IMG/VR virus record: IMGVR_UViG_3300043409_002192
Coordinates: 1 to 63,330 of that record
DNA from: a virus
Taxonomy: Duplodnaviria > Caudoviricetes
DNA length: 63,330 nucleotides
Strand: one strand, 5' to 3'
The notes under the pieces were generated by a model, which was not told the origin of the DNA, ran no database searches, and saw only the letters and a list, made by a program, of their open reading frames with translations. This document shows positions 325 through 63,330 of this stretch, piece by piece. The translations under genes and the position numbers were made by a program. Position 1 is the first letter of the stretch; every line of letters starts with the position of its first letter.

Positions 325-569
325 CACCTGACGCGCCAACGGTTGACGCTCTCATTGCGGACTTGGAAGCGCGCGGCCTCGGCTGGTCGCTCGACAACAC
401 AGGACGGCTCATCGAGGCGCGCGTGTGGGACTGGCCGTATGTGATCGGACGCTACCGCCCGAATGCCACCGAGCCGCTCGCCAAGATGCTCGCCGAAGCG
501 ATGTATCAGGTGGACTGGACCCGCTACCCGGTGAAGTCGCCGAACGCTCTGCCAACCTCTGGGGCATGA
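321..569 (+). CDS. hypothetical cassette protein (MTPDAPTVDALIADLEARG...)
   Basis: ATGA overlap with the upstream stop; ends ...KSPNA.. inside the attC at 539. Confidence 0.7.
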   Translation: MTPDAPTVDALIADLEARGLGWSLDNTGRLIEARVWDWPYVIGRYRPNATEPLAKMLAEAMYQVDWTRYPVKSPNALPTSGA

Positions 570-668
570 CCAGTGAATCTCAAAATACCAAAAGACATGA
601 TCGAAGATGCAAAACTCACGAAGTCCGACACGCCAGCCCCAGAGGTTGGCAGCAGCGCTTTGTTCGGC
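539..668 (-). other. attC-like recombination site
   Basis: Plus strand GCCGAAC...GCCAACCTCTGGGGC / GCCCCAGAGGTTGGC...GTTCGGC imperfect palindrome; spacer appears shortened on one arm. Confidence 0.75.
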
Positions 669-974
669 TGGCTTGGCGAGGAGATAGCTCGCAATCGACG
701 GAGGGCTGAGCAAGCTACTGCTCTCGCTGACCGTCTAGCCTCCCTAATGGCCGGAGCCTGCGCTGCCGGCCAATGGCGCGGAGTCAAGACGGTGAAACTC
801 GTGACCGATAGGGCCTATGTGATCCGCAGGCCGGGAACAACATCGCTCGAGCTAGCAACATGGCACGACGGATGGCGCACAATCATGGGGCATATTGCCA
901 ACGGGGGGGAACTCGAAGTGTGGGAGCCGAACGCTGAGGTGAGGCACGGCGCAAAGGACGCTGACCTCGACTAG
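597..974 (+). CDS. hypothetical cassette protein
   Basis: ATG inside the attC loop (GTG 573 is an alternative); N-terminal SSALFG comes from the attC arm; ends WEPNA.. in the next attC. Confidence 0.7.
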   Translation: MIEDAKLTKSDTPAPEVGSSALFGWLGEEIARNRRRAEQATALADRLASLMAGACAAGQWRGVKTVKLVTDRAYVIRRPGTTSLELATWHDGWRTIMGHIANGGELEVWEPNAEVRHGAKDADLD

Positions 975-1011
975 AAACTTTCCCGCCGTTGCCTCGACCG
1001 TCTTGTTAGCC
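926..1011 (-). other. attC site (canonical architecture)
   Basis: Minus strand reads GGCTAAC-AAGAC-GGTcGAGG-CaACGGCG...CGCCGTG-CCTCACC-TCAGC-GTTCGGC: R'', L'' with extrahelical C, second extrahelical A, L', R'. Confidence 0.9.
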
Positions 1012-1032
1012 GTTCGGGGGACGCGGAAACCA

Positions 1033-1766: not shown

Positions 1767-2072
1767 ATGAAAGTCCGCGACAAAAACATCAAACAGACTG
1801 TAAGTGTGGCCCATTCGCGTTGCCTCAAATGCGCGTGCTATTGGCCACGCCCCGATCCGGGGGTATTCACGCAAGGGCAGGGATACCGCCGACGCGAGGG
1901 AAAACAGGAATGGCTTTGCGGAACACGCGAAATCAGAGGATGCCCAACACGGGCGCGATGCTGCAACAGAGCCTACGCCGCCTATGAAACCAAGTGCCGG
2001 GAATGTGGTCATTCTTTGGAGAACGCACAAGCTCTGGCACAGCCGGGGCGCAACCAGACTCCGACACCATGA
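1767..2072 (+). CDS. Cys-rich (Zn-binding) hypothetical cassette protein
   Basis: Several CxxC motifs; ends LENA.. in the next attC. Confidence 0.7.
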   Translation: MKVRDKNIKQTVSVAHSRCLKCACYWPRPDPGVFTQGQGYRRREGKQEWLCGTREIRGCPTRARCCNRAYAAYETKCRECGHSLENAQALAQPGRNQTPTP

Positions 2073-2117
2073 AAAACTCCACCGCCCCGGCCGTTGTCCA
2101 GCAGCGCCTTGTTCGGC
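2018..2117 (-). other. attC site
   Basis: GGAGAAC..GCTCTGG..GCCGGGGCG / CGCCCCGGC..CCAGCAGC GCCTT GTTCGGC. Confidence 0.85.
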
Positions 2118-2914
2118 CTTCCGGTCGTGTGCTTTGCCGCTTCTCCTGTGGTGCCGCTTCCGCTGTGGCTACAAAGCTGGCAATCGAGAAATACGGCACG
2201 GTAGAAATCAACTACTCGGACACTGGCAGCGAGCATCCAGACAATGCCCGCTTCATCGCAGACTGTGAGCGGTGGTTCGGTCAGAAAGTCACGATCACGA
2301 AAAGCGAAAAATACCGCGACATCTGGGAAGTGTTCGAGAAGAAGCGGTTTCTTGTCTCGCACCAAGGAGCGCCATGCACGGCGGAAATGAAACGCCGCCC
2401 AGGTGATTCGGTCTGGAGTATCGGGGACACTGAAATCTTCGGATACACGGCAGACGAACGGCATCGGGTAGAGAAATGGTCACGGGACAACTTCGAGAGA
2501 ATCATTGAATGCCCGCTCATCGAAAAGAACCTCACGAAGGATGACTGCTTCGGAATCTTGGACCGTGTAGGCATCGAGCTTCCCGCCATGTATCGGTTGG
2601 GGTTCCGCAACAACAACTGCATCGGGTGCGTGAAAGCCCGCGATAATCTCGACTACTGGAAAAGAGTGCGAAAGCACTTCCCCGAAATCTTCGAGCGCAT
2701 GGCAAAGCTGGAGAGGGACATCGGAACGACGATCAACCGAATCACAAAAGCGGGGGAACGCTCCCCGATCTTCCTCGACGAAATCGAAGCAGGCGACCCG
2801 AAAGGCGCGGACCCTAATATCCAGTGCGGACTCTTCTGCATGGCCGAAGCTGACGCGCTACTTGATGGGCCGAACGATAAAACTGAGCCACAGGCCCCAC
2901 AATCAAATCTATGA
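2069..2914 (+). CDS. PAPS-reductase-like (adenine nucleotide alpha-hydrolase) family protein
   Basis: FSCGAASAVA PP-loop-like motif, HPDNARF, PCTAEMK, YRLGFRNNNCIGCVK, C-terminal CGLFC; ATG in the attC loop. Confidence 0.8.
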   Translation: MKNSTAPAVVQQRLVRPSGRVLCRFSCGAASAVATKLAIEKYGTVEINYSDTGSEHPDNARFIADCERWFGQKVTITKSEKYRDIWEVFEKKRFLVSHQGAPCTAEMKRRPGDSVWSIGDTEIFGYTADERHRVEKWSRDNFERIIECPLIEKNLTKDDCFGILDRVGIELPAMYRLGFRNNNCIGCVKARDNLDYWKRVRKHFPEIFERMAKLERDIGTTINRITKAGERSPIFLDEIEAGDPKGADPNIQCGLFCMAEADALLDGPNDKTEPQAPQSNL

Positions 2915-2964
2915 CAACACAAGAGACATCCGAGGGGCATATTGGCTCCAGTGCCTTGTTCGGC
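2869..2964 (-). other. attC site
   Basis: GCCGAAC GATAAA ACTGAGCC..GCCCC / GGGGC..GGCTCCAGT GCCTT GTTCGGC. Confidence 0.88.
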
Positions 2965-3264
2965 GTCCTTGAGTGGATCAGCCTCCAAGGAGGCACGTTC
3001 AACGCCTTCAATCCCGGCCTCATCACTGGCAAAGTGAGAGGTCTGACTTACCGCTACTTCATCGCGGAAGGGTGGATTGGGTTGAAGACACCGGACTGCA
3101 CGGCAGGGAAGGCGACAGAGTGCCTCAATATTGAGGATTTTCGATATGCGCTAGAAATCCATGCGCCGAACGCCGCTGCGCAGGACATGCCACACTTCCT
3201 GCCGAACGATTTAGCGCACACACAGAAGGGGCGGGAGCGCGGCCCCGATAAAACTCAAGCCTAA
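2911..3264 (+). CDS. hypothetical cassette protein
   Basis: ATGA overlap in the attC loop; SSALFG leader. Confidence 0.7.
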   Translation: MTTQETSEGHIGSSALFGVLEWISLQGGTFNAFNPGLITGKVRGLTYRYFIAEGWIGLKTPDCTAGKATECLNIEDFRYALEIHAPNAAAQDMPHFLPNDLAHTQKGRERGPDKTQA

Positions 3265-3329
3265 CTCTATGGAAACGACTACCTTTAACACAGCGGCCCC
3301 TTCTGTTGATGTGCCGCGCCTTGTTCGCC
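3201..3329 (-). other. attC site
   Basis: GCCGAAC GATTTA GCGCACA..ACAGAAGGGGC / GCCCCTTCTGT..TGTGCCGC GCCTT GTTCGCC. Confidence 0.85.
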
Positions 3330-14160: not shown

Positions 14161-14162
14161 GA

Positions 14163-15229: not shown

Positions 15230-15237
15230 GGCGTGTT

Positions 15238-16119: not shown

Positions 16120-16124
16120 GGCGT

Positions 16125-17554: not shown

Positions 17555-17568
17555 GGTGGTAATGGTGG

Positions 17569-23800: not shown

Positions 23801-25874
23801 ACTGGTCCCATCCGTTGGCAATTTCCGTGGCCGCGACGTTCAGGGAACCACTGGCACGCAGCTGTTCCTTTTTGAGATTCCGGGTGGCAAGCTCCAGTTC
23901 CCTGGAGACAGCGGCGGTATTGAAAAGCGGTTGGTCAGCATGCTCCCGGATGTATCCATTCAGGGCATCCAGCCGGGCCTTTGCTTTGTCTGGGCTCTGC
24001 TCGTCCAGTTTTCCGGCGGCATCCAAGGTGGTGTTTAGATCGGGCACGGGTTTGACTTCGACCCCGGCCGCTTTGTAGGCCTCCACGACTTTGTTGATTG
24101 GCACCGCACCTTGGAATCCAAGATCACGCACCCGGCGCAGATCGCCCTGCACGCTTTCTGCGATGGTATCAAATTCACTGACGGAAGCACCGGCCCAGTC
24201 CTTGAACATTTTCTGGCCCTGTTCCGGAGTCACGCTGCCATCCTTCACCATTTTGGCGATACGGCCGCCGTCCTCCTGAACTTTGGCATCCACCCGGGCA
24301 GCCAGTTCACGGGCGCGGCGGGTGGTTTCCGCCACGAGAGCATAACCGGTTTCCCGTTCCATCCGGACATCCGGCACCTCCGTTCCCCCTTCCTGCTCGC
24401 GGCCAAGCAGTTTCCCGCGGTCACTGCGCACGGCTCCCTGCTCACTGTCACGCAGGAAGATATCCTTCCCGGGGTTTTGAGCGAGGGCCGTCGGTAGATC
24501 CTGCACGCGGTTGGTTTCCAGAACGCCCTGACGGTATTTCGGCGTGAAGCCGGGAGTCAGTTTGACCGGTGGGGAGGACTGCAAAGCCGGATCGGCACCG
24601 GTCGCTTTGGCCTGCTCCTCCACCTTGGCGGCCTCTTCAGCCTTCACACTCTCCAAGGCTTGGGTTTGCTCCTGATTGAGACCTTCCGCCCACTTCTGGT
24701 GATCTTCAATACTGGCATTGACGCTGGCAGCCTTGGCATTCAGGGCTTCCATCCGCAGACGCAAAGCTCCCTGCTGCCGGATGATATCCGGAGCCTCGGC
24801 CGCCGTGTATCCTTTCTGCGCCCGTTCCATCAGGGCCATCTGTTCCTGTTCCAGAGCCGTGCGCTCCTGATCCAATCCTGTCTTCAGGGCTTGGATGCGC
24901 TGGCTCCCCTGCTCCATCTGTTTCCGTTGCAGGGCCGCCAGTTCCTCAGGCTTCCGGCTGCCCAGCTTTTCCTTCACGAACTCATCCAAGGGTTTCTCTT
25001 CGAAAGCCATCCGGTCGAGTTCCAGCTTCGAAATCTGTTCCAGCCGGTTCTGCCGCTCGCCATGTTTGCGCAACAGTTCCTCATCCCCCGGCATGACGTT
25101 GTTGCTGGCCTTCCGCTCAGTGGCTTCCTTGACCAACTGCGCAACCTTGGCCGGCGTGGCATCCATGCTGAGGGCAGGGCTCTTAAGTTCCGCGGCAATC
25201 CGTGCCTTCTCGCGGTTCATCTGCTGCAACTCACGATCCCGCAAAGCCGCCGCACTGGCATCCTTCACCTTCTTGTCAGGTGAGAGCAATCCTTCCTCGG
25301 GATCAATCGCATCCCATGGCTTCGCCTTGTTCTGGCGGTAGATAAAACGGTCGTTAGGGTCCTGCGGATTGTTTCCAATCGGCGCGTCCGCATCAAGGAA
25401 CTTTTGTTGGAAAGCTCCGTCCGTCCGTTCCACCTGATACGCCCGGCCGGTGGCGTCATACTGCACGGGCCCCTTGATGTCCTTCACCACCGGCTTGCCC
25501 GTCAGGGGGTCCTTGGCCTGCACCACGCTGCCATCTGGATTCCTGTCAGTCACCAGTCCCTGGGACTCCATGCTGATTTCCTTCAGGTCATTCGCTTCCT
25601 TCGTCCGGCGTTTGTTTTCGGCTTCCGCCTCCTTCGCCGCGGCCTCTGCTTCCTGCTGCTGGAAATACCCCTGCCGGATCTGCTCATTGGCTACTGCGGC
25701 TTTCTGCTGGTCGTATTGATCCCATTGCCGGGCCTGGCCTTCGTCATAGGTGTCAGCCAATCCGCCACTGAGCCGGCGGGGATCCACGGGGCCGGGCTGC
25801 TGGGGCTCCGGGGCGGGGATTTGAGTGGCAGGAGAGAGAACGCGGCGGCGGTAGTTTTGCAGGGACATAGGCAA
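17811..25874 (-). CDS. giant polyvalent / internal virion (ejection-type) protein with DdrB-like ParB domain
   Basis: 2687 aa; coiled coils, glycine-rich hydrophobic segments, PSHD..LQPRDRS..GAPVI..GNGR ParB-like domain. Confidence 0.8.
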   Translation of the reverse strand: MPMSLQNYRRRVLSPATQIPAPEPQQPGPVDPRRLSGGLADTYDEGQARQWDQYDQQKAAVANEQIRQGYFQQQEAEAAAKEAEAENKRRTKEANDLKEISMESQGLVTDRNPDGSVVQAKDPLTGKPVVKDIKGPVQYDATGRAYQVERTDGAFQQKFLDADAPIGNNPQDPNDRFIYRQNKAKPWDAIDPEEGLLSPDKKVKDASAAALRDRELQQMNREKARIAAELKSPALSMDATPAKVAQLVKEATERKASNNVMPGDEELLRKHGERQNRLEQISKLELDRMAFEEKPLDEFVKEKLGSRKPEELAALQRKQMEQGSQRIQALKTGLDQERTALEQEQMALMERAQKGYTAAEAPDIIRQQGALRLRMEALNAKAASVNASIEDHQKWAEGLNQEQTQALESVKAEEAAKVEEQAKATGADPALQSSPPVKLTPGFTPKYRQGVLETNRVQDLPTALAQNPGKDIFLRDSEQGAVRSDRGKLLGREQEGGTEVPDVRMERETGYALVAETTRRARELAARVDAKVQEDGGRIAKMVKDGSVTPEQGQKMFKDWAGASVSEFDTIAESVQGDLRRVRDLGFQGAVPINKVVEAYKAAGVEVKPVPDLNTTLDAAGKLDEQSPDKAKARLDALNGYIREHADQPLFNTAAVSRELELATRNLKKEQLRASGSLNVAATEIANGWDQFTGSYLMMRAAMNHLSGDEQEFLDLHQRANARSAKVEARGSVVESFGSIKSKSDAFHYVGQTVLRMIPDLVETAGFGLTGALIGSAAAPGAGTAGGAIAGVFGKTAIKRAIAKEAVELIAKQGLKQEVAMSLAERSVLSALKTEAKAGGKGVLSNLIRQQTSQTLAKWGAFASSFRGNGGEYLNSTLGEMTSAEIAADPDKVDRAIAASLLLAVPAAALDALDGVESGMVQKLLGNTGKELRKKTENAALSFAKELGVGVGKEAGTGLMQGIMGVYAKRITDKVDLDLPLTKEESAEIFENTVGEAIGGGVFTSVGATRTALAPIKEAWQVNQANNKVQDEIKKTAAVVTSPPEQLAELAGVDPAMMTAALGAVPSLDAFGPVPGMTAQRDALGLIAADAKAKGDRVTAREALKGMAVLEKQRREAMLGGIKNLVALEESFAAPIDNNGVILQPGMPEHEAMTSTARAVVAVATGRADTLDNAQLLALDLKRGTSGEIEPLGGKTTAPDGVPRVSVENGELIVSQGTINRVTSMFPAAAPLIGQSETERRASVAEMAAKEKAKSEEKDIPADNPVNSTPESVQDKPATNTTKATQSPTQSPSATATNRQFDVTVDGQEAPVRVTAANKTAAIAQVASEGKGMVRDAVEVSPAPTAKPDFAQAITAAGVARGMASTPERVKRNAVLAKALENEAKRWGAAFPGGFRVKTATNSGGVQISTDRALELDFDGLAISAEATGGNVGEWARLAIQEEVIHSAALELENAKKLDAAAIYNALPPKVQRVIRQAYRTTADPRNLGHEFLRMIIQGRLAMGANGITLDGTIITTEQASPTLAATIRRAINALLAYLKDFRKRLAKAGATPETIAAIDDTVQRIEARLKEFAGTETAATPPTEKTAAVAEPAPEATTEESPVVEPVGTPNPVPRTDSGNPTAITQHSVKLTARFAVRERASLLPSHDYRGNISEGYDQALQPRDRSLPEYQKQSQNIARELSFDQAAYFPDTEVPATTPDLGAPVIDAGAQVIIGNGRFNGIAMAYGEGFPSAGKYKADMVAAAKTFGLDPAVVEAMKEPVLVRVLDPVDKETVIKFSQGSNEGVAMRTNAVELAGQDAQRLSGPAKNVLALLDPNYDLEARQNEPFRQAYVTQVIAAGGANEANLTGPELANRIRMGIFASAYGLNAEGRAALARMAGETDDGAKKITNAMLTMAAGMGWMKAEAAAGKLYDRDISTDLGSAVQRIAVALRDKPAKTPASAVYEGLAGQPDAFEDPMVTRLMQFMVENRSSRQRLEEALSNYVEGVVNLGNPAQADMFGDEPASREALWSRAIDDTVQRIEARLKEFAGTQTETTIVPAAEPDPLSPGYYIYQKKDFVDSPRSYFQVAVSLTNDGKSNPELNKTFSTLKEAIAYGDSFGVRNATPEPRTFVGNRSVLRVSDRPNATIKFRDGAYFWHDGVAPDYVDERRFESIGELRRMLNASFFEGSAGFQNQIQSLPLNIRTEMRDGLQLLDVFTLRSEAKQAGIELKKDSTKEDAITALLNFADNAAAVSKPAARDLTKPEQMTPEEAFAKEFESRWSGKKVPTQAEWLEKNPKPSRMKSEEVSQTEAVNAFAKWVERRRNFLWGNVAKQRQISNSWIDDLPSKEFMKNSGYLKQGDVWVPGRNSKPAKPDDWTDYDYQTALEDINAAKTKEIERSKLYNTYLISIQDALAQKRPVAVAAVEWADLKAIPDGYIKQSELYVYPKTAVVTADGQQDFLAGQPDEPFNLTPESAAERRAREAKELAAENKRKAKEAATEKAAEAATPELPPALTPEEAELKKVLDSIMDGSLQSQPLAPTYALEIPDAAFIPLATAAKNFAKVATTPEALAASLTKMGPAYRGFSEAIWSGMGMSNKDLRSIQPDWNAIYSALDNPPTSPTNQNDLPARPNLEPDRGDVAAGDRSRTTGPDAAPDVLLSLGRDGNTIESPLASPSQEQLDTQQQFARKLAKLIGCLNSKLKTS
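19777..19832. repeat. 56-bp direct repeat, copy 1
   Basis: 55/56 identical to 21148-21203; encodes AIDDTVQRIEARLKEFAGT. Confidence 0.95.
21148..21203. repeat. 56-bp direct repeat, copy 2
   Basis: 55/56 identical to 19777-19832. Confidence 0.95.
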
Positions 25875-25990
25875 ATGTCCGGTCCAGCTTACGCGCCTTT
25901 CCGGACCAGCGCAATTGTTGCCTAGATTACATCTGCCGCAACTTTGAGACCTCAGCTCCTAAATCGACTGCACCGCGCCGTGGACGGCTC

Positions 25991-26025
25991 CCCACTCGGC
26001 AGGCCGATACGCTTTGCCGAGTGGG
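25991..26025. terminator. GC-rich hairpin at the start of array B
   Basis: CCCACTCGGCA...TGCCGAGTGGG stem; no U-tract. Confidence 0.4.
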
Positions 26026-26119
26026 TCGACGCATAGCTCATGGATCACTGCCCGCCATCGACGTTGACTTCGGAAAAACTGTCCGCCGGGCAGGGATTCC
26101 ATGCAGCGTCTTGTTCTGG
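26024..26119 (-). other. attC site with degenerate core (GTC instead of GTT)
   Basis: GGTCGAC GCATA GCTCATGGA TCACTGCCCG / CGGGCAGGGATTCCATGCAGC GTCTT GTTCTGG. Confidence 0.75.
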
Positions 26120-26241
26120 GTCTTTTTTGGGGCGGTGAAAATAAATGATAAAAGATTGAAATAATGCTTGCAGGAAATCAAACCGCGATTTAAGGTCTTC
26201 TCAGTTGCCGCACGAAGCGCAATCGAACCGACCAACAAAAA

Positions 26242-27117
26242 ATGAAAATACAACATCCAACTCTACCACTCGTCCTCGAAGCAATGCCCTATCGCGGCGA
26301 TGTGCATCTCGAAATCAACAAAAAAAATGCCGGGCATACCACCGACGAGGAGCCGGGATATCCCACCGCATCAGACATCACCAATCTCAAAAAAGCTGGC
26401 AAAAATCCCGAGGAATACCGCACCATCGGCAAAGCCTGCCTCAATCCAAATGCACTCTCATGGGTGCTGGAAAATCGCCCCGCATTACTCGCGGATGCAA
26501 AAAAAGGAAAAGCGGAATACGATGCAAAAGTCAAAGCCAACCGTGACGCCGAGATCGCTCGTGATGCTCCATTGATCGCGGAAATGGAAGCAGAAGTAAA
26601 ACGCCTCCAAGCAACAATCCCGTCAGACCACATCGAAGTCACAGTAATCGACAAAGGCGACTTTGACGGATACCGCATGGAGGACTTTGTTTGTGATGGC
26701 GTAAAGCTCCGTTGGGATCAAGTTACAACCATCGGCCATGCCAGCGCGATCCGCCCAGGAGCGTTGGGTGCTTTTGCCCACCGCCGCGTTTGCTCAATCA
26801 GCCGTTTGGACTTGGAGTCCGCGCGAGCGGAGCAAGAAAAAGACGCAGTAAAAGCCGCCGAGAAAAAAGCAGAGCGAGAAACCGAACTCAACGCACCAGT
26901 GCCACCTGAAGCGGTCGCCGCCTACAAATCCTGCGGAGGTGATCCAGAGCGCCTGCATGACGACATCGACCACCCTCATTACTGGATCGTAAAACGATAC
27001 GCAGATGCAATCGAGCACCAAGGATTGGCTTGCGAGGCCACGCTCAAAAAAATGACCGCCGAAATGAAAGAAGCGGCTCGTGAAGAACAGTCACAATACG
27101 CAGGAGGTGAAGCATGA
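26242..27117 (+). CDS. hypothetical protein
   Basis: 291-aa ORF after an AT-rich promoter-like region (TTGCAG..TAAGGT). Confidence 0.8.
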   Translation: MKIQHPTLPLVLEAMPYRGDVHLEINKKNAGHTTDEEPGYPTASDITNLKKAGKNPEEYRTIGKACLNPNALSWVLENRPALLADAKKGKAEYDAKVKANRDAEIARDAPLIAEMEAEVKRLQATIPSDHIEVTVIDKGDFDGYRMEDFVCDGVKLRWDQVTTIGHASAIRPGALGAFAHRRVCSISRLDLESARAEQEKDAVKAAEKKAERETELNAPVPPEAVAAYKSCGGDPERLHDDIDHPHYWIVKRYADAIEHQGLACEATLKKMTAEMKEAAREEQSQYAGGEA

Positions 27118-27461
27118 GCCGTGACATCAAAAAGTGCCTGCAATGCGAATCAGAGTATGATGCGGGACTTTCCCAGCCGGGAAACGAGCAACGCCGCAAG
27201 TTTTGCTGTCGAGACTGCAAGACGGCGTATCACAACTCAAAGTACTATCGCGAACATACAGAGGAGATTAAAGCTGCCGTCATCAATCGCCGAGGAGGGA
27301 AACGGGAAGGAGCGGGGCGCAAGCCCCGCGATACTCCCCGAGAAGCTATCACCGTGCGGTTGGAGCCGCAGGATGCGGACAAGTTGCGGGATCTGTGCAA
27401 TGCGCGGGAGATGTCTCAGGCCGATTGGATCACCGAAAAAATCAGAAAGTCCCGCCAATGA
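27114..27461 (+). CDS. DNA-binding protein (Zn finger + GGKREGAGRKP + RHH-like C-terminus)
   Basis: CLQC..KFCCRDCK, RGGKREGAGRKP, ITVRLEP..SQADWI. Confidence 0.75.
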   Translation: MSRDIKKCLQCESEYDAGLSQPGNEQRRKFCCRDCKTAYHNSKYYREHTEEIKAAVINRRGGKREGAGRKPRDTPREAITVRLEPQDADKLRDLCNAREMSQADWITEKIRKSRQ

Positions 27462-27614
27462 TAACGTGGAAATCAATGACGAAGGTGACAAGTCGGAGGA
27501 GGAAATCTGGTGGTTTAATGTCTCTCGGAACAGGGAAGAGATATTCAACTCATCTGACTTTAAAGGAGCGATCATAGGCGGCGAAATGTGCCGTGCGCTC
27601 GCTGAGGCCATTAT

Positions 27615-27738
27615 GGCGAACGCCGCTGCGCAGGAACCCCCGCTGACACTGAACCCAACCAACAAATAAAATGAACGAACTACCTAGCACTAAACCGGAG
27701 GCGGATGGCGGGGTTACCCTGCCTCAGCCTTGTTCATC
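27615..27738 (-). other. attC site
   Basis: GGCGAAC..GCAGGAACCCCCGC / GCGGGGTTACCCTGC..GCCTT GTTCATC. Confidence 0.75.
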
Positions 27739-27964
27739 GCCGCTTGACCCTGCCACATGCCTTGCCCTCAAGCCCGTCCACGACATCGGCGATCAGGCGG
27801 TGAAGGAGCGCGACGAATGGAATCGCTGGTCTGTGGGAATCGCTGGGATGCTCAATGTGTCGTGTTCTGACTTCGCCTCAGACGTGGTGGCAGATCAATA
27901 CGCGGAACTCCGCGCCCGAATCACTCAAGCACTGAACGACTCAAGCTCAGCGACCCGGCCATGA
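27671..27964 (+). CDS. hypothetical cassette protein
   Basis: ATG in the attC loop; PCSS leader; ends ALNDS.. Confidence 0.65.
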   Translation: MNELPSTKPEADGGVTLPQPCSSPLDPATCLALKPVHDIGDQAVKERDEWNRWSVGIAGMLNVSCSDFASDVVADQYAELRARITQALNDSSSATRP

Positions 27965-28023
27965 AAGACTCACCCTTGCAACCAACGGACGATGGCCGGG
28001 TTCGCTGCAGCGCATGGTTAGGC
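27931..28023 (-). other. attC site
   Basis: Minus strand GCCTAAC CATGC GCTGCAGCGAACCCGGCC...GGCCGGGTCGCTGAGC TTGAGTC GTTCAGT. Confidence 0.9.
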
Positions 28024-28236
28024 GGCGGGCTATCGGCACTCCAGCGAGTGCGCAATCGGCTCCGGGACGAAGAATGTGAACTGCGCAAGCAAGCGGATAA
28101 ATGGCACCACCTCGGTGCGCCCGAAACTGCAACCGCAAAGCGCCTCGCAGCAGATGTTCTGGATGCTGCGGTCAGCGTCATCGTTAAGCTTGAGGTCGAA
28201 ATCATCGCTGAGCGAGATGAGCCGCCTAACGCTTGA
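27961..28236 (+). CDS. hypothetical cassette protein
   Basis: ATGA overlap in the attC loop; ends EPPNA. Confidence 0.7.
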   Translation: MKDSPLQPTDDGRVRCSAWLGGGLSALQRVRNRLRDEECELRKQADKWHHLGAPETATAKRLAADVLDAAVSVIVKLEVEIIAERDEPPNA

Positions 28237-28285
28237 GATCAGCCACGGGGCCTTAGCCCCGTTGGACTGTATCTCATTGTTCTGC
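28224..28285 (-). other. attC site (short, 62 bp)
   Basis: GCCTAAC GCTTGA GATCAGCC ACGGGGC-loop-CCCCGTT GGACTGTATC TCATT GTTCTGC. Confidence 0.85.
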
Positions 28286-28314
28286 TCCGTTGGTGAGAAT
28301 CTTCAAAATACCGC

Positions 28315-28342
28315 TTGTGTCATAACCCGCTTATGATAATAT
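28315..28342 (+). promoter_or_regulatory. promoter-like element with palindromic operator
   Basis: TTGTGT..TAATAT with TCATAA-CCCGC-TTATGA; upstream CGTTGGT..AATCTTCAAA shared with 1127-1148. Confidence 0.55.
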
Positions 28343-28349
28343 CAGACAC

Positions 28350-28547
28350 ATGAACGCTGAATACATCGCCGACGCCAAAGCCCTTATGTCCACCGCTGAT
28401 CGGTGCGACTCAACCACTGAGCAGGCCCGCCGCCTATACACTCAGGCCGCCCGTATCCTTCGCGCCTGCCCTCGGTCAACTGACTGGTCGGAGGCATCAC
28501 GCATCAACAATCTCATCCAGGAGGCCGACTACAATGCAAGCCTCTGA
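28350..28547 (+). CDS. hypothetical protein
   Basis: First ORF after the cassette promoter. Confidence 0.6.
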   Translation: MNAEYIADAKALMSTADRCDSTTEQARRLYTQAARILRACPRSTDWSEASRINNLIQEADYNASL

Positions 28548-28725
28548 ATCGGTGGCGGAAATCTCCGTCAATGGAGTGCTCGAATCAGTGGTTCGCGTGC
28601 CGTCTGATTGCGTGCCGTCTCTCATGGCCTACCTCGAAAAGCGAGGGGCATCCTTCCCGATGGCGATCCTGCTGCGCATCTTCGTGGCGAACTGGAAAAC
28701 TGGCGTCGATCTATCGAAGGCATGA
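28534..28725 (+). CDS. hypothetical protein
   Basis: Overlaps both neighbours. Confidence 0.55.
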   Translation: MQASESVAEISVNGVLESVVRVPSDCVPSLMAYLEKRGASFPMAILLRIFVANWKTGVDLSKA

Positions 28726-28910
28726 AAAAGGAACTCAAGAAATACCTCGCGGAGATCGGCAGCAAAGGCGGCAAGGCAAGCCGCCGCAAGATCACCCCAG
28801 CACAGCAGGCAGCGATGCAGGAAGCTCGAAAGGCCGCAAGACTCCGCAAGGAGCAGAACAGTGTATTATCACAAACTCATGAGAATTTACCGCAACCAGA
28901 AAGCGAGTAA
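28722..28910 (+). CDS. small basic KGG-motif protein
   Basis: MKKELKKYLAEIGSKGGKAS; ATGA overlap. Confidence 0.65.
   Translation: MKKELKKYLAEIGSKGGKASRRKITPAQQAAMQEARKAARLRKEQNSVLSQTHENLPQPESE
28853..28876 (-). other. putative attI-like array end site B
   Basis: GCAGAAC-AGTGTATTATCACAAAC, similar to 3553-3575. Confidence 0.55.
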
Positions 28911-28938
28911 GGCACTCAAAATCAAGCTGCGGGAGCGG

Positions 28939-29166
28939 TCATTGAAAGGAGTCGCCGCCCGTGCTGCCAAGCGCATGGCCCGCGCGCCCGATGCCCTGCC
29001 GGAGCCGCAGCGCATCCCATTCCCGAATTGCGTCGCGCCTCGTTCGCATGGTGTGCCCCTCGTACTCGCATCCATCTGGATGCCGCTCGCACTTCACTTT
29101 CCAATACGAGTCCCAGTGCAGTATTCTTGCGCTGCTTCCGCAACAGCATTTTTGCGCTTCAATCAT
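28939..29166 (-). CDS. Lar-like small Zn-binding protein
   Basis: CCCG..VKC..C..DAIREWD; ATGA overlap with the upstream gene. Confidence 0.55.
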   Translation of the reverse strand: MIEAQKCCCGSSARILHWDSYWKVKCERHPDGCEYEGHTMRTRRDAIREWDALRLRQGIGRAGHALGSTGGDSFQ

Positions 29167-29819
29167 GATGCCCCTCCTACCCCTATGTGTGCTTTGATTG
29201 CTGCAAACCGGTCCACAGGCGCAGGCGGCACAAACACTGCCTGAGCCACCACCGCGGCCGATTCAATCCACACCGTCTTTTTCCGCCCCTTCCGCTCCGC
29301 CTTCAACACTCCCTCCTTCTCCGCCTCATCCACCAACGCATACCCACGCGATGGCGAATACCCCAGCTCCACCAACTGAGCCACCACATCCCTGCAATCC
29401 ATCCGATCCTTCACGATCTTCCCCCATTCCACCGCCGGATTCTTCACATTCAGCCGCACAAGGTTTTTTCCCTTCTCCCCCTTCTCAATTTTCAACGATC
29501 CACCAACCACCCCACGCTGGATCAATTCCCCCGCCGCCTTTCCTCCCATCGAGTAATCCACATTCAAAAGCGAAATCAAATCCGTCTTCCAAATCCCTTC
29601 CCCAGGCACCCGGCCCACCAATTCTTCCACCGTGACAACCGGCACCACGCGCAGCCGCTCCTTCATCACCGCCACCATTTCAGGATGCTCCCGCACCCAT
29701 TCAGCCGCCGCCGCTTTCATCAGTTCAGCCACCACGGCTTCCTCCATCCCACGCCCATACTCCCCCATCATCAATGGGTTTTCCAGCTTCAGTTGCAGTG
29801 ATTTTTTGATGTCATCCAT
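29163..29819 (-). CDS. hypothetical protein with two probable winged-helix repeats
   Basis: 218-aa ORF; repeated helix..L.(IE/AE)K.G.K...V pattern. Confidence 0.7.
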   Translation of the reverse strand: MDDIKKSLQLKLENPLMMGEYGRGMEEAVVAELMKAAAAEWVREHPEMVAVMKERLRVVPVVTVEELVGRVPGEGIWKTDLISLLNVDYSMGGKAAGELIQRGVVGGSLKIEKGEKGKNLVRLNVKNPAVEWGKIVKDRMDCRDVVAQLVELGYSPSRGYALVDEAEKEGVLKAERKGRKKTVWIESAAVVAQAVFVPPAPVDRFAAIKAHIGVGGAS

Positions 29820-29849
29820 GTTATTACATTCCTCCTATTGAGGGCAGAA

Positions 29850-30390
29850 TAGTAATTTCCTGCGGCCCCCGTTAAGTGTGTGTCATACAGCGCAGGAATA
29901 TCGCCGTCAATCCTATATTTTACAAGCCTTGGGAAATTACTGCCGTCATTCCTGCGGTGTTAGTCATCATTCCTCCTCCTTCACAGTAATAATTTACTCT
30001 CATTTTCAACGACTTACACGAATGCCGCTGGCAACATCGGCGCAATGGAGGGAAGGGAACCCCCCTATAGCTAAAGCGATATTAGGGGGGTGTGTTCCTC
30101 CCTTAATTCCGTCACTTCCCCCCTGGCTTCCCTCCTCCATTGCGCCATGCCACCGCCGCCACTGTATCAAATTTGAGCCGGAAACCCATCAAATTTCAAT
30201 CAGAACCCCCTCCGCCTTGTCCTGAGCCACACCACCCCATCCCACCACCATCCACGCTCATTCCTGTTTTCATTCCTGCCCCCGTAGAATCCACTCAGGT
30301 TTTCTTCCCCATTTCCACCCTCATACCACTCAGTTGTTATCAACCGCAGGAAGATCAGTTCCGGGGGGCACTCAGTTTCGCCCAGGAAAT
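29850..30390. repeat. repeat-rich non-coding region (candidate origin or pac region)
   Basis: Multiple (GTCA)TTCCT(GC)-like motifs on both strands; inverted repeat GGCGCAATGGAGG 30039-30051 / 30134-30146. Confidence 0.5.
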
Positions 30391-30530
30391 CACCTGCGCC
30401 ATCAAGTCACATTCCGTTTTCATAGTTGACGGGGAAGGTCGTGGGTGGCAAAATGACGCACCCGAAGCCCACGCGGGCGCGAGGCTCAAATCCGGCCCGG
30501 CTCTAACTAAATCTGGCTTCTTTCTCAGAA

Positions 30531-30884
30531 ATGCGAAAAACCCAGACAGAACTGAAAAACCTCCGTGCCGGCGACATCGGAACCGGCCTCATCCTGCAAC
30601 TCGCCAAGGAAGTACCCCCTGAGCAAATCGCGGTGGCCATCAAGGAGATGCTGGGGGCTACCACCAATCAGCGGACCGGTGCTCATGACTACGAGGAGGT
30701 GCCGGATTGGCGGGCTCGAGAGGCGGCGGTGAAACTCTACCTCTCCTACATGCTGGGGATGCCAGTCCAGCGAACCGAAGTGAAAACCCAAGTCATCGAG
30801 TCTGAAGAGCAGACGCTGGCCAGGCTGCTGGGAAGTCCGGCCGTCAGGGAGGCTTTGCGCAGGGAGTTGGCTCAGGAGGTCTGA
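30531..30884 (+). CDS. putative terminase small subunit-like protein
   Basis: PDWRAREAAVKLYLSY..G.PVQRTEV motif; lies upstream of the large terminase. Confidence 0.5.
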   Translation: MRKTQTELKNLRAGDIGTGLILQLAKEVPPEQIAVAIKEMLGATTNQRTGAHDYEEVPDWRAREAAVKLYLSYMLGMPVQRTEVKTQVIESEEQTLARLLGSPAVREALRRELAQEV

Positions 30885-31002
30885 CCGCTCTAAAATAAAC
30901 TGTCGGCGGAAATCCCCCGTTCAGAAGGGCGGGATAACTTTTTTCTTTCGTTACAAGAAATACGTTGCATTTATTTAGAACGCGTGCGACACTGTATTCG
31001 TT

Positions 31003-31161
31003 ATGAAAGCCAACTTTGATTCCGCCATCGAAATCGCCATTACCACCGTTGCCAAGATGCTTGGTATTTCCGCTGAGGAGGTCGCCAGAAAAGCACAGCA
31101 ACCCGGTCCGGTCCGTGATTCTGTCATGATGCTGGCCGCTACTGGAAAGGAGGCGGCATGA
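31003..31161 (+). CDS. small hypothetical protein
   Basis: ATG right after a TTGCAT promoter-like element; ATGA overlap with the next gene. Confidence 0.5.
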   Translation: MKANFDSAIEIAITTVAKMLGISAEEVARKAQQPGPVRDSVMMLAATGKEAA

Positions 31162-31346
31162 ACAGGAAGAGGGAACGCGACTCAAGTATGATGACTGCCC
31201 CACGGGATCGGAAGCTACTCTTGGAGCGGTATGGCTCTCCTTCAAAATTTGTGGGTCGGTGGGATCATGAAACGCAACGCTGGCTAAATGAAGCCGGCGA
31301 ATGGATGACGAAAGTTCACACTTGGCACCCTTTACCATCAAAATGA
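31158..31346 (+). CDS. small hypothetical protein (DUF551-like C-terminus)
   Basis: GGAGG RBS; ends VHTWHPLP. Confidence 0.6.
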   Translation: MNRKRERDSSMMTAPRDRKLLLERYGSPSKFVGRWDHETQRWLNEAGEWMTKVHTWHPLPSK

Positions 31347-31987
31347 AAACACCCGTCGCTATCTTGGTCCGTGTCTCCACCGTGAAGCAGGAAACCGCCC
31401 GTCAGATTTCAGAACTGACAGCGGCGGCTACTGCGAAGGGCTGGAACGTCGTGGAGGTCATTGAGGAAACCATTACCGGCCGGGCGGACGCCAATATCCG
31501 GCCAGGGCTCGCCCGCATCACCGCCCTCATGGCTGCCGACAGAATCAGGAAGGTCATGGTTCATGAGGTTTCGCGCCTGAGCCGCCGGCCTGCGGTGGTC
31601 CATCAGTTCGTCGAGGATCTGGAAGCCGCGGGCGTCTCGCTCTATTGGCACGCCCAGGGCATCGAGACACTGCTGGCGGATGGGAAGCGGAATCCTGCCG
31701 CAGCAATCATGCTGGCCTTGCTGGCGGAGTTGGCCAGGGCAGAGACTGATACACTGCGGGAGCGGGTGAAATCAGGGCTGGCAGAGGCCAAGCGGAATGG
31801 TGTGAGGTTGGGAAGGCCTGAGGGTACGCTGAAGGCTGCTGCGGTGTTTCTGCGGGATCATCAGGACGTGGTGAAGTATCTGGAGCGGAAGCATACTATT
31901 CGCGATGTGGTGAAGCTGACCGGGAAAGCAATGGGCACGGTGCAGAAGGTGAAGCACGCTTTGAAGGGGGGAGAAGAAAAACCTTGA
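31343..31987 (+). CDS. serine recombinase (resolvase/invertase family) with C-terminal HTH
   Basis: ILVRVSTVKQ, EVSRLSR, ERVKSGL..AK..G..LGRP. Confidence 0.93.
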   Translation: MKTPVAILVRVSTVKQETARQISELTAAATAKGWNVVEVIEETITGRADANIRPGLARITALMAADRIRKVMVHEVSRLSRRPAVVHQFVEDLEAAGVSLYWHAQGIETLLADGKRNPAAAIMLALLAELARAETDTLRERVKSGLAEAKRNGVRLGRPEGTLKAAAVFLRDHQDVVKYLERKHTIRDVVKLTGKAMGTVQKVKHALKGGEEKP

Positions 31988-32332
31988 AACGGAAGCCGGC
32001 GGATGGTGTAGTATGATTGTGAATGCGGAGTTGGCGCTTTGGGCTTCTTTTTTGCCTACGTGTCAACTTTTGATTTGCGCGTGAGACAGCGTAAGTGTAG
32101 GGGTGGCGTGCTTTATGGGGGCAGGACGGCGCTGTTTATGGCTTTTCAGCGAAGTCCTGTCCCTTGGGGCACCAAAGCCAAAAGTCATGCAACTAAATTC
32201 AGAAGACCCGATGGAGGAAGGATTGAAGCAATGGGATCGGAAGCAGGATGAGTGGGGACAAGTTCTTTTTGGGATTGGCATGGGATGGATTTCCATGGCG
32301 GCGTGCATCTGGATTTACAATTTGATAACCCT

Positions 32333-32731
32333 ATGAAATGCGCAATCTACGCAAAAGGTCCGGGTGCTGAACAGCGGCTGGTGGAGTGTGAGAACTGGGG
32401 ATTCAAGCAGGAATTCCCTCCGATGGCGGTGTGTCAGACGTGGGATGAACTACTGCAATGCGTGAGGGAGGGAAATGTGCAGTGCGTGGTGCTGGGCAGC
32501 CTTGGGGATTGTGAAGATGTGATGGAACTGGCTGGGGTGGTGGTGTCGAAGGGGGCGTTTTTGGTGTCATTGGGGGATGAAGTGGATACGCGACCGTATG
32601 GTCAGGTGCAGAGTGGGCAAGGTCGGATGTTGGAGGGTATGGCGCGGTGGTGGCGTGGGTGGTGGCGTGATGATGCGGTGAAGAGACGCGTAGGCCGTCC
32701 GAAGAAGGTGGTGGAAGGAGGTTGCTTGTGA
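32333..32731 (+). CDS. degenerate resolvase-like protein lacking the catalytic motif
   Basis: MKCAIYAKGP in place of YARVS; GNVQCVVL..L; C-terminal GRPKK. Confidence 0.55.
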   Translation: MKCAIYAKGPGAEQRLVECENWGFKQEFPPMAVCQTWDELLQCVREGNVQCVVLGSLGDCEDVMELAGVVVSKGAFLVSLGDEVDTRPYGQVQSGQGRMLEGMARWWRGWWRDDAVKRRVGRPKKVVEGGCL

Positions 32732-32997
32732 GCACGGCGGAAGAGCGGGCATCGTGGACGGATCAGGAATGCGGGGAGGCTGCGTTACTGCTTGAGGGCG
32801 CTGTTGGGCGCGAGAAGGCGGTGTCGGTGGCTGAGGTGGTGGATGGGTTGACGCGGAAGGGGTTTGGATTTCAGGAGATGATGGGGAATTTTGCTGGGTT
32901 GCCTGGGCCGATGGTGGAGATGTTTGAGCGTGTGATTGAAGGATACCGTCGGGCGTCGTTGCGGGTGACGATGGAGGAGAACATTAAGAACAACTGA
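32722..32997 (+). CDS. hypothetical protein
   Basis: Packed between neighbours; GGAGG upstream. Confidence 0.55.
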   Translation: MLVSTAEERASWTDQECGEAALLLEGAVGREKAVSVAEVVDGLTRKGFGFQEMMGNFAGLPGPMVEMFERVIEGYRRASLRVTMEENIKNN

Positions 32998-61928: not shown

Positions 61929-61930
61929 CG

Positions 61931-62583: not shown

Positions 62584-62908
62584 GACTTGGTGTGATGGCT
62601 GCCTAAATCGCCGTCCATGCCGCGCCCTAAGATCGGGAGTCGTTTACAACTGCATCGAACTGGAAATCCACCTCTGCCGCTGGTGCCGAGGGCAACGAAC
62701 TCGCAAGTCAGCGAACGACAAAGGCCAGACACGGCGGGAGGAATTAGCTGCGCCGCCCCCCGCGCTCCCCTCCGCCCCACTCCCTGACGATCAAATTACG
62801 CAAGCCATGCTGGAAGCCTGCTACGACTGTGGGATGAGCGCCCACGCGCTGCCGCTTCTGCCGAACGACCAAGCGCTGGCACCGGATGGGCCGAAAACAA
62901 CTCTATGA
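62525..62908 (+). CDS. Cys-rich cassette protein fused to a partial cassette
   Basis: PCS leader, CDGC..CRWC; reads through AGCGAAC at 62710. Confidence 0.6.
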   Translation: MKSNPSTRTTGASAPVPCSLTWCDGCLNRRPCRALRSGVVYNCIELEIHLCRWCRGQRTRKSANDKGQTRREELAAPPPALPSAPLPDDQITQAMLEACYDCGMSAHALPLLPNDQALAPDGPKTTL

Positions 62909-62962
62909 AAACAGAACCAACTACCCCGGCCCAGCCGGTTGCCCAGCCGCGCCTTGTTCGCC
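62860..62962 (-). other. attC site
   Basis: GCCGAAC GACCAA GCGCTGG..ACCGGATGGGCCG / CGGCCCAGCCGGT..CCAGCCGC GCCTT GTTCGCC. Confidence 0.88.
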
Positions 62963-63330
62963 CGTTGCCCTGCCCTCATTGCGGTGGGCCCGCCGAACTC
63001 CGGCGATACCAACACGACCGCGAAAGGGTGTATTACGCCTGCGCGGCCGCGGCGTGCCACTACACATATACCGACCATAGCGAAGCACTGGCAGCGTGGA
63101 ATCATCGGGCGAACAGAGGAACCGAACCCACCCCACCCAGAAACCCGTCGCGAGTCGAAGAACAACTACGCATCGCACTTGACGGACATCCCGAAAGCGA
63201 ACTCTGGGGAGAAAACGGACTGATCGCCGCAACGATGCGAGCTGCCAACTACGCCAGTCGCCAGCAAGAAGCGGAATGGAAGCTGGCCGACTACCTGCGC
63301 GGCGGAGGAATGCTCGCAGCGCCTGCTGAC
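62905..63330 (+). CDS. Lar (restriction alleviation)-like domain fused to a downstream hypothetical; continues to 324
   Basis: LPCPHCGG..C..C..EALAAWNHRA; translated by hand, absent from the ORF track. Confidence 0.7.
   Translation, partial: MKTEPTTPAQPVAQPRLVRPLPCPHCGGPAELRRYQHDRERVYYACAAAACHYTYTDHSEALAAWNHRANRGTEPTPPRNPSRVEEQLRIALDGHPESELWGENGLIAATMRAANYASRQQEAEWKLADYLRGGGMLAAPAD
63178..63330. repeat. terminal direct repeat (circular assembly overlap), copy 2
   Basis: Identical to 1-153 except one base; an ORF reads through the junction. Confidence 0.97.

What the first reader, a model, noticed from the sequence alone, without database searches (positions are those of the whole stretch)
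26024..28876. Second, separate cassette array (array B) with the same design
Seen: attC-like sites at 26024, 27615, 27931 and 28224 with the same polarity, about 22 kb from the end of array A. The two arrays bracket the minus-strand block of giant genes. The arm AACGCCGCTGCGCAGGA occurs at both 27619 and 3169, suggesting a shared cassette pool. Inference: there are several capture loci per genome, and recombination between arrays could excise or exchange the intervening block.
Basis: partly seen in the sequence, partly recalled or inferred. Interest (0 to 1): 0.8.

Follow-up and report, generated by a model that had tools for sequence, protein, structure and literature searches.

The report
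Integron attC sites in a phage
This stretch of a freshwater phage genome carries recombination sites of the kind bacterial integrons use to swap gene cassettes, but not the enzyme that cuts them, so the phage may ferry cassettes between bacteria; such phage-borne clusters have been described before.

Summary
The window is a complete ~63.2-kb phage genome. The site at 27931 belongs to a highly conserved ~93-nt attC family. That family occurs in arrays beside integron-integrase genes, mostly in Verrucomicrobiota and Planctomycetota. A covariance model built only from 100 non-window copies scores it at 81.7 bits. With filters off it also finds 28224 (22.3 bits, E 2.4e-4) and, marginally, 26024 (15.6 bits, E 0.03). 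It does not find 27615. The same model finds four sites in array A. All hits lie on one strand and only inside the two arrays. The phage has no tyrosine recombinase, so both arrays are CALINs (attC clusters lacking an integrase). Any cassette movement would need a host IntI; that is inference. Unlike bacterial arrays, the phage's small genes run against the attC polarity and read through the sites. The only relative found lacks these sites and these genes. In it the segment [array A + giant genes] is inverted, and no repeats explain that. Excision of the giant block was not tested. Phage CALINs are already published (Qi et al. 2023), so this is a new member of a known kind.

The parts
26018..26122 (+). 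Candidate attC (b0) at the left edge of array B, in the divergent region between the giant gene start and the first small gene. Borderline.
   Evidence: R1 15.6 bits, E 0.03, filters off. Arm duplex -20.8 kcal/mol, 0 of 300 shuffles as good. Two contigs of run X1 fit up to 26115 and then run on unlike the window (table 7).
26242..27669 (+). Three tightly packed small genes between b0 and the 27615 site: 26242-27117 (291 aa), 27114-27461 (115 aa), 27466-27669 (67 aa). Function unknown.
   Evidence: ORFs. No Pfam family over its cut-off; weak phrog_35980 and phrog_876 for the 115-aa protein. The codon-position GC pattern resembles that of the portal and head genes. The 291-aa protein has relatives at 74-80% identity on other contigs, one of them in a different upstream context (L141).
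27615..27738 (+). Doubtful attC-like site (b1). It has AAC-ending and GTT-starting 7-mers and carries the 17-mer shared with 3169, but only a weak dyad.
   Evidence: 7-mers. Not found by R1 at E<=10. Arm duplex matched by 19 of 300 shuffles. 17-mer.
27928..28026 (+). attC site (b2), a full member of the conserved ~93-nt family. The canonical top strand is the window's minus strand. The stop of ORF 27671-27964 and the ATG of ORF 27961-28236 lie inside it.
   Evidence: R1 81.7 bits. Alignment with copies in 4 viral contigs shows likeness starting at the AAC 7-mer and ending at GTTAGGC, with unrelated flanks. X1 contigs break at 27995-28019, and at least 9 X2 contigs run on unlike the window before 27990.
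28027..28220 (+). Cargo of the small cassette between b2 and b3, holding the C-terminal ~62 aa of ORF 27961-28236.
   Evidence: An 81%-identical protein (P0001) and the record's own 62-aa call (P0002). Stop-free frames of 64 codons on both strands.
28221..28288 (+). attC site (b3), a short form (GCCTAAC ... GTTCTGC) with a bulged 17-bp stem. It overlaps the stop codon of ORF 27961-28236.
   Evidence: R1 22.3 bits, E 2.4e-4. Fold z -4.1 and -5.8. Homologous to 1057-1165 in array A.
28289..28349 (+). Promoter-like stretch after b3, shared with 1124-1165 in array A. It precedes the small genes 28350-28910.
   Evidence: Alignments. The hexamers were read by eye. The consensus scan did not list it.
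62857..62965 (+). Array A attC site.
   Evidence: R1 28.2 bits, E 6.9e-6. Fold z -3.9.
923..1014 (+). Array A attC site, not in my earlier motif list.
   Evidence: R1 21.6 bits, E 4.1e-4, filters off.
2015..2120 (+). Array A attC site upstream of the PAPS-reductase-domain gene.
   Evidence: R1 19.5 bits, E 0.0036. PF01507 for 2069-2914.
2866..2967 (+). Array A attC site (GCCGAAC ... GTTCGGC).
   Evidence: R1 36.3 bits, E 1.9e-8. Fold z -4.1.
539..668 (+). Array A attC-like long hairpin with exactly complementary end 7-mers. R1 matches it only in part.
   Evidence: Fold z -5.7. Arm duplex 0 of 300 shuffles. R1 partial match 9.9 bits, E 1.7.
3201..3329 (+). Array A attC-like site. R1 does not find it.
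   Evidence: 7-mers. Arm duplex 0 of 300 shuffles. Whole-stretch fold z only -1.4 and -1.6.

Best explanation
Array B is a CALIN: a cluster of integron attC recombination sites with no integron integrase, carried by a complete ~63-kb phage genome that also holds a second such cluster (array A).

Shown here: the sites belong to one very conserved ~93-nt attC family, which in Verrucomicrobiota and Planctomycetota genomes forms cassette arrays next to intI. The sites have 7-bp inverse cores, an unpaired spacer and a long stem with single bulged bases.

Inferred: the phage picked up these cassettes from its host's integron pool, probably a host from the Planctomycetota-Verrucomicrobiota-Chlamydiota (PVC) group of phyla. 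During infection a host IntI acting in trans could fold the bottom strands. It would then cut at the canonical R' box, which is the left end of each site in window coordinates. Units of about 290-320 bp, or the 1.5-kb three-gene unit, could then be excised as circles or exchanged with the host integron or with other phages. Phage promoters, not an integron Pc promoter, would express the genes.

My odds: about 0.9 that 27931 and 28224 are attC sites of this family, and about 0.5 that they are still used by an integrase.
For: By my reading of the record titles, 63 of the 120 are Verrucomicrobiota and 22 are Planctomycetota.

2) Likeness between copies begins at an AAC-ending 7-mer and ends at GTTAGGC, and the flanks are unrelated. 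The left 7-mer is GCCTAAC in 50 of 125 copies and GCCGAAC in 14 of 125.

3) Copies form arrays: 17 of 124 loci hold 2-5 exact copies, and 15 of 26 spacings are 348-518 nt.

4) TIGR02249 (integron integrase) scores over its cut-off in 3 of 5 genomes tested. A fourth has two adjacent partial matches. None of 14 control genomes is over the cut-off. Copies lie 0.8-3.4 kb from these genes. An IntI-like gene lies inside 24 of the 124 fetched pieces. L091 shows the textbook layout of intI, a gap, then cassettes separated by the element.

5) Structure on 100 copies: 95.3% of cells are paired, and pair 39-76 covaries (CG 43, GC 29, GU 8).

6) Model R1 finds seven sites in the window at E<=0.05, all on the + strand and only in the two arrays. 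Divergent attCs inside true bacterial arrays score in the same 21-76 bit range.

7) The phage has no PF00589 match and no IntI remnant.

8) Phage CALINs, and IntI1 recombination of 5 of 6 phage attC sites, are published (PMC9892861, abstract and section 3.4 read).
Against: No integrase is present, and activity cannot be tested here.

The 27615 site fails the model and 26024 is borderline.

R1 is specific to this family. The right half of its training copies was fixed by my search pattern. Its E-values are rough because calibration was shortened. The general IntegronFinder model was not available.

The phage's genes run against the canonical attC polarity. In bacterial arrays the longer open frame is on the canonical strand in 19 of 25 segments. 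In the window it is on the opposite strand in 7 of 11 segments, on the canonical strand in 3, and tied in 1. Pfam-supported genes lie on that opposite strand.

Start and stop codons of neighbouring ORFs lie inside the sites, so excision would truncate them.

No cargo of arrays A or B has a relative in the fetched integron loci. Only the attC-encoded residues 6-22 of ORF 27961-28236 match.

The relative G001 has no site at E<=0.01.
Confidence: 0.75

Rival explanations
1. Inert relics. The phage once picked up pieces of a host integron array by illegitimate or homologous recombination. The sites are now decaying passengers that no integrase uses, and the small genes have grown over them.
For: The sites range from near-consensus (81.7 bits) to undetectable. 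ORFs read through them and use start and stop codons inside them. Gene direction is opposite to the canonical cassette direction. There is no intI. Qi et al. also propose illegitimate recombination as a route into phages.
Against: Eleven or so sites on one strand in two clusters, with unit sizes (about 290-390 nt) like those of bacterial arrays (348-518 nt), are more than a single scrap. The 27931 site is almost intact. Divergent sites are also normal in live arrays.
Confidence: 0.3
2. The repeats serve the phage's own homologous recombination (Sak4-like annealing protein and exonuclease). They act as short shared linkers that shuffle small early genes, in the manner of the promoter-stem-loop cassettes of T4-like phages (recalled, not checked), whatever their integron origin.
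For: The phage encodes a Sak4-like protein and an exonuclease. Arrays A and B share a 105-nt hairpin-plus-promoter-like module and a 17-mer. The 291-aa gene occurs in another upstream context elsewhere.
Against: Apart from those two stretches the window's sites are only about 60-70% alike, which is poor substrate for homologous exchange. No junction or variant was seen.
Confidence: 0.1
3. The sites are ordinary terminator or regulatory hairpins of an early-gene block and have nothing to do with integrons. This was my own first reading.
For: Small overlapping ORFs of unknown function. No Rfam match. The hairpin at 28243-28266 is followed by a promoter-like stretch.
Against: The same element, with the same ends, sits in arrays beside integron integrase genes in many genomes. 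A model built from those copies finds the window's sites.
Confidence: 0.03
4. The phage's own small serine recombinase (31301-31987) acts on these sites or on the array borders, and produced the inversion of [array A + giant block].
For: PF00239 Resolvase, 103.5 bits. It is conserved at 70% identity in the relative. The segment is inverted between the two phages.
Against: The relative keeps the recombinase but has no such sites. No inverted or direct repeats above shuffles lie at the block or segment ends. Serine recombinases are not known to use attC hairpins (from general knowledge).
Confidence: 0.05

Closest known systems
CALINs (clusters of attC sites lacking an integron integrase) in phage genomes, Qi et al. 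2023, Front Microbiol, PMC9892861 (abstract and section 3.4 read)
   Same: Two or more attC sites in a phage genome with no intI. Cargo mostly of unknown function. The proposed role is carriage of cassettes between bacteria.
   Different: Here there are two clusters in one genome, with seven model-supported sites and about four weaker ones. The attC family is that of Verrucomicrobiota and Planctomycetota integrons. Genes run against the attC polarity. The phage is known only from a metagenome, so no assay or host exists. I could not see that paper's supplementary tables, so I cannot say whether a similar phage is listed there.
Chromosomal integrons of Verrucomicrobiota and Planctomycetota, e.g. 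locus L091 (G007) and Lacipirellula limnantheis I41 (G008)
   Same: The same ~93-nt attC family: R1 scores 86-119 bits there and 81.7 bits at 27931. Unit sizes are similar.
   Different: They have intI (TIGR02249 over its cut-off) and an attI-side gap, and their cassette ORFs lie on the canonical strand. The phage has neither intI nor that gene orientation.
CALIN as defined by IntegronFinder, Cury et al. 2016, PMC4889954 (passages read)
   Same: [quoted passage not shown] The authors suggest an integrase encoded elsewhere may mobilise the cassettes.
   Different: That survey covered bacterial replicons. The word 'prophage' does not occur in its main text.
Homogeneous attC repeats (VCRs) of the Vibrio cholerae superintegron (recalled, not checked here)
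   Same: attC sites conserved in sequence as well as in structure.
   Different: VCRs are homogeneous within one genus. This family keeps an exact 25-mer across records labelled with many phyla.
Promoter-early stem-loop (PeSL) mobile cassettes of T4-type phages (recalled, not checked here)
   Same: A repeated hairpin plus promoter bounds small genes of unknown function in plastic regions of a phage genome.
   Different: Only two copies of such a module occur here. The hairpins are integron attC sites, not phage-specific repeats.

Membership tests
integron attC site | Inverse core 7-mers at the ends (RYYYAAC ... GTTRRRY; consensus recalled) | tested here: met
   27931: ACTGAAC (6 of 7) ... GTTAGGC (7 of 7). 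28224: GCCTAAC (7 of 7) ... GTTCTGC (5 of 7). 27615: GGCGAAC (5 of 7) ... GTTCATC. Bacterial copies: GCCTAAC in 50 of 125 and GCCGAAC in 14 of 125.
integron attC site | Imperfect dyad (L boxes) with extrahelical bases and an unpaired spacer | tested here: met
   27931: 15-bp stem plus bulged bases. 28224: 17-bp stem with three single-base bulges. Arms beat 300 of 300 shuffles for 26024, 27931 and 28224, but 19 of 300 shuffles match 27615. In the family the extra bases lie in the canonical R''-L'' arm.
integron attC site | Length about 57-141 nt (range recalled) | tested here: met
   93 nt (27931-28023), 62 nt (28224-28285), 124 nt (27615-27738), about 100 nt (26018-26122).
integron attC site | Passes a covariance model of attC sites | tested here: inconclusive
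   Family-specific model R1: 27931 at 81.7 bits, 28224 at 22.3 bits (E 2.4e-4), 26024 at 15.6 bits (E 0.03), 27615 not found. The general IntegronFinder model was not available, and Rfam returned no attC match.
integron attC site | Relatives of the site lie in arrays next to an integron integrase gene | tested here: met
   TIGR02249 over its cut-off in 3 of 5 genomes, against 0 of 14 controls. Copies lie 0.8-3.4 kb from intI. IntI-like gene in 24 of 124 fetched pieces. Layout of L091.
integron attC site | Recombined by an integron integrase | not testable with these tools
   Needs an attC x attI assay.
CALIN | At least two attC sites close together on one strand | tested here: met
   27928-28026 and 28221-28288, both on the + strand and 293 nt apart start to start.
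CALIN | No integron integrase nearby | tested here: met
   PF00589: 0 matches in the whole 63,330-nt record. Best IntI tblastn E 0.16.
complete integron | intI gene with an adjacent attI and Pc promoter | tested here: not met
   No intI. attI and Pc were not sought.
invertible segment of a serine invertase (Gin/Hin type) | Inverted repeats at both ends of the inverted segment, next to the invertase gene | tested here: not met
   No inverted repeat above shuffles between 3450-3900 and 25700-26300, or between 61850-62200 and 25800-26300. The recombinase gene lies 5.4 kb from the nearest end.

The most novel reading that the evidence does not exclude
The two CALINs are live docking sites for the host's integron integrase. 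Phage early genes and bacterial integron cassettes of PVC bacteria would then form one shared pool. All sites are direct repeats and their canonical polarity matches the direction of the giant virion-protein genes. The 22-kb giant block between the 26018 site and the array A sites would therefore behave as one oversized cassette. IntI could loop it out of the circular genome and exchange it between co-infecting phages.
Probability: 0.05. Interest if true: 0.85.

Novelty: new member of a known kind. Interest (0 to 1): 0.55.

Why it matters
Integron cassettes are known to travel on plasmids and transposons. Phages as carriers were shown only recently, in 21 phages (Qi et al. 2023). This complete environmental phage carries two attC clusters drawn from an attC family that is spread over many Verrucomicrobiota and Planctomycetota genomes, where little is known about integrons or phages.

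The sites point to a likely host group for an otherwise orphan phage. They mark which of its small genes are probably exchangeable. They also supply natural sequences for a direct test: can a host integrase move genes between its chromosomal integron and an infecting phage? The reversed gene polarity and the ORFs that read through the sites are not explained by the textbook cassette model.

Tried and rejected
My first reading was an ordinary early-gene block with terminator hairpins. I dropped it.

Paralogy as the source of the shared 17-mer: all-against-all blastp of 28 small proteins gave nothing better than E 0.018.

The repeated 5'-of-gene motif (nine copies) looked like a frame-independent RNA or DNA signal, or a shared leader peptide. 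It turned out to be the right half of the attC sites. The identical 21-residue N-termini of P0003-P0007 are most simply gene calls that start at an ATG inside the attC loop.

Rfam gave nothing at gathering scores and two chance-level matches at E about 5. The consensus promoter and terminator scan was at chance level.

Searches for relatives:
- blastn of the region against phage records found no match.
- Peptide-pattern scans with the 291-aa protein, the giant protein N-terminus and the recombinase alignment found only G001 and one 26%-identical stranger.
- The portal has only relatives at 23% identity or less in GenBank phages.
- The first metagenome scan found nothing. The second found L141-L143, which carry no R1 site at E<=0.05 in L141 and L142.

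Repeats at the ends of the inverted segment, and likeness of the junctions to G001: nothing above shuffles.

Read evidence: only contigs were laid, and only on 15001-35000, so array A x array B junctions could not be seen. The two joints listed are a 76-nt skip at 16217 and a 43-nt skip inside the 27931 site in one X2 contig. X2 showed no cover over 25673-27006 and almost none over 28341-29007, which proves nothing.

Orientation of genes relative to attC in the other viral contigs (L008-L011) was ambiguous, with open frames on both strands.

The protein atlas had no usable hit for the 291-aa protein.

Supplementary tables of Qi et al. were not available.

In one search one of the three IntI queries (from L133) was a wrong-frame ORF. 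All hits reported came from the other two queries.

Full report
WHAT THE WINDOW IS. Bases 1-153 repeat at 63178-63330 with one mismatch. The record is an IMG/VR virus record that CheckV rates 100% complete. It encodes a portal, a major head protein, a terminase-like protein, a helicase, a primase-helicase, an exonuclease and a Sak4-like protein. On the minus strand it carries a block with two giant genes. One is 3482 aa with helicase motifs. The other is 2687 aa with a ddrB-like ParB domain. Fibre-like genes lie between them. There is no tRNA and no Rfam family. Region B (26242 to about 28910) is a run of small + strand ORFs with overlapping stop and start codons and no family assignment. A minus-strand gene at 29163-29819 ends it.

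FIRST PASS. The 17-mer at 3169 and 27619 is real. Both copies lie inside ORFs, in the same codon phase. Single-strand folds of 91-nt stretches were unremarkable at 26024 and 27615 and strong at 27931 and 28224. The intergenic stretch 28222-28326 is homologous to 1057-1165 in array A. No tyrosine recombinase exists anywhere in the genome. At that point I took the region for an ordinary early-gene block.

WHAT CHANGED THE READING. Laying the contigs of two metagenome runs on 15001-35000 showed two things. The likely source run's contigs break at 27995-28019. In a second run from another study, at least nine contigs share about 35 nt there and then run on unlike the window on both sides.

A protein search with ORF 27961-28236 returned five proteins (P0003-P0007). 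They share its first 21 or so residues and are otherwise unrelated to it and to one another. One of them ends with the same element read in another frame.

A 25-letter pattern from the site occurs exactly in 4 viral contigs. By my reading of the record titles, 63 are Verrucomicrobiota, 22 Planctomycetota, 2 Kiritimatiellia and 33 others. Some of the others carry doubtful bin labels.

In alignments, likeness starts at a 7-mer ending in AAC and ends at GTTAGGC, with unrelated flanks. The left 7-mer is GCCTAAC in 50 of 125 copies.

THE ELEMENT IS AN INTEGRON attC.
- Copies form arrays. Seventeen of 124 loci hold 2-5 exact copies, and 15 of 26 spacings are 348-518 nt.
- The integron-integrase model TIGR02249 scores over its cut-off in 3 of 5 genomes tested. 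A fourth has a split gene. None of 14 control genomes is over the cut-off.
- The copies lie 0.8-3.4 kb from those genes.
- An IntI-like gene lies inside 24 of the 124 fetched pieces.
- Locus L091 shows intI, a gap that ends in GCCTAAC, and then four short ORFs, each followed by one copy.
- On 100 copies, the R box and L box structure is paired in 95.3% of cells. One pair covaries (CG 43, GC 29, GU 8). The columns fixed by my search pattern cannot count as evidence.

MODELLING THE WINDOW'S SITES. Model R1 was built from those 100 copies and none from the window.

With default filters it finds:
- 27928-28026 at 81.7 bits
- 2866-2967 at 36.3 bits
- 62857-62965 at 28.2 bits
- 2015-2120 at 19.5 bits

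With filters off it adds:
- 28221-28288 at 22.3 bits, E 2.4e-4
- 923-1014 at 21.6 bits
- 26018-26122 at 15.6 bits, E 0.03

All are on the + strand and inside arrays A or B. The 27615 site is not found. Its arms are matched by 19 of 300 shuffles, whereas those of 26024, 27931, 28224 and three array A sites are matched by none. Inside true bacterial arrays, divergent sites score 21-76 bits, and the reverse reading of a strong site scores 21-32 bits. The window's weaker scores are therefore in the normal range. None of those weaker sites has a reverse-strand match at E<=10. With at least two sites and no intI, both arrays meet the definition of a CALIN (Cury et al. 2016, passages read).

POLARITY. 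In L091 and in 19 of 25 bacterial inter-site segments, the longer open frame lies on the strand opposite to R1's orientation. The extra bulged bases then fall in the canonical R''-L'' arm. The canonical top strand of the window's sites is therefore the minus strand. The window's small genes are nevertheless on the + strand:
- The longer frame is on + in 7 of 11 segments, on - in 3, and tied in 1.
- PAPS_reduct and HTH_3 domains are encoded on +.
- The codon-position GC pattern resembles that of the structural genes.
- Several ORFs start or stop inside the sites.

I have no tested explanation for this. The other viral contigs gave no clear answer.

RELATIVES AND REARRANGEMENT. Only one related phage was found, G001 (55.6 kb). 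Its helicase is 65% identical and its giant protein 57%. It has no counterpart of the genes of arrays A and B and no R1 site at E<=0.01. Its giant genes are fused into one ORF of about 5750 aa.

Relative to the rest of the genome, the segment [array A + giant block] is inverted. In G001 the two small-gene blocks are adjacent and divergent, and the giant gene follows the late genes directly. No repeats above shuffles mark the ends.

A small serine recombinase (31301-31987) is shared by both phages, so it is not tied to the sites. The 291-aa gene of array B has relatives at 74-80% identity elsewhere. One of them lies in a different upstream context.

COMPARISON WITH WHAT IS KNOWN. Qi et al. 2023 (PMC9892861; abstract and section 3.4 read) report integron parts in 21 phages and 17 CALINs. 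They also show IntI1 recombination of 5 of 6 attC sites from virulent phages. The kind is therefore known. Two full-text searches listed no paper that, by its title or abstract, describes this attC family or phages of PVC bacteria carrying it. I read only the listings apart from the two papers named.

VERDICT. This is a new member of a known kind, with an unexplained reversal of gene polarity.

Noticed in passing
1-153 and 63178-63330: Terminal overlap of 153 nt with one mismatch. The record is a closed or terminally redundant genome of about 63,177 bp, so array A runs across the window's ends.
   Followed up: partly
3712-25874 (minus strand); G001 13702-30945: In the relative G001 the two giant genes are one ORF of about 5750 aa. 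The window has an extra stretch of about 5.6 kb (about 14160-19749) with fibre-like genes (a Gp80 domain at 17123-17599) that splits the gene.
   Followed up: partly
about 61930-63177 + 1-25874, against G001: The segment [array A + giant block] is inverted relative to the rest of the genome between the two phages. In G001 the two small-gene blocks are adjacent and divergent (turn at about 10404-10497). No repeats above shuffles were found at the ends.
   Followed up: partly
31301-31987 (+): Small serine recombinase (PF00239, 103.5 bits), 70% identical in G001. Its role is unknown (resolvase, invertase or other).
   Followed up: partly
L012-L131 and other loci: The attC family is unusually conserved in sequence. 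An exact 25-mer occurs in at least 120 stretches of species-representative genomes whose labels span many phyla, and mean column identity is 80% over 100 copies. Some odd labels (Klebsiella, Bifidobacterium and Akkermansia muciniphila MAGs) may be binning errors.
   Followed up: partly
27961-28023; proteins P0003-P0007: Gene callers start ORFs at an ATG in the attC loop, so unrelated proteins share an identical N-terminus of about 21 residues encoded by the attC. Whether any of these starts is used is unknown.
   Followed up: no
about 29008-29113: In the likely source run, the contigs left of this point have word depths of 15-18 and the contig to its right 26.8. A short alternative contig with 7 differences ends here, and the second run shows five of the same differences. 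This hints that strains share the right side but differ over array B. Contig depths are crude.
   Followed up: no
G002 (IMG/VR record, 57,022 bp, direct terminal repeats), 24460-25406: A second, unrelated complete phage carries three attC sites of the same family within 1 kb on one strand (103.7, 51.7 and 26.7 bits). It has no PF00589 match.
   Followed up: partly
29001-30000 and 32001-35000: Extreme GC skew: -0.40, then +0.33 to +0.45. It fits a G-rich coding strand (minus-strand gene 29163-29819; plus-strand 628-aa gene 32997-34883).
   Followed up: no
1057-1165 and 28222-28326: The two arrays share a module of about 105 nt: a short attC followed by an A-rich stretch and promoter-like hexamers. 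It suggests that the small genes downstream of each copy have their own promoter.
   Followed up: partly
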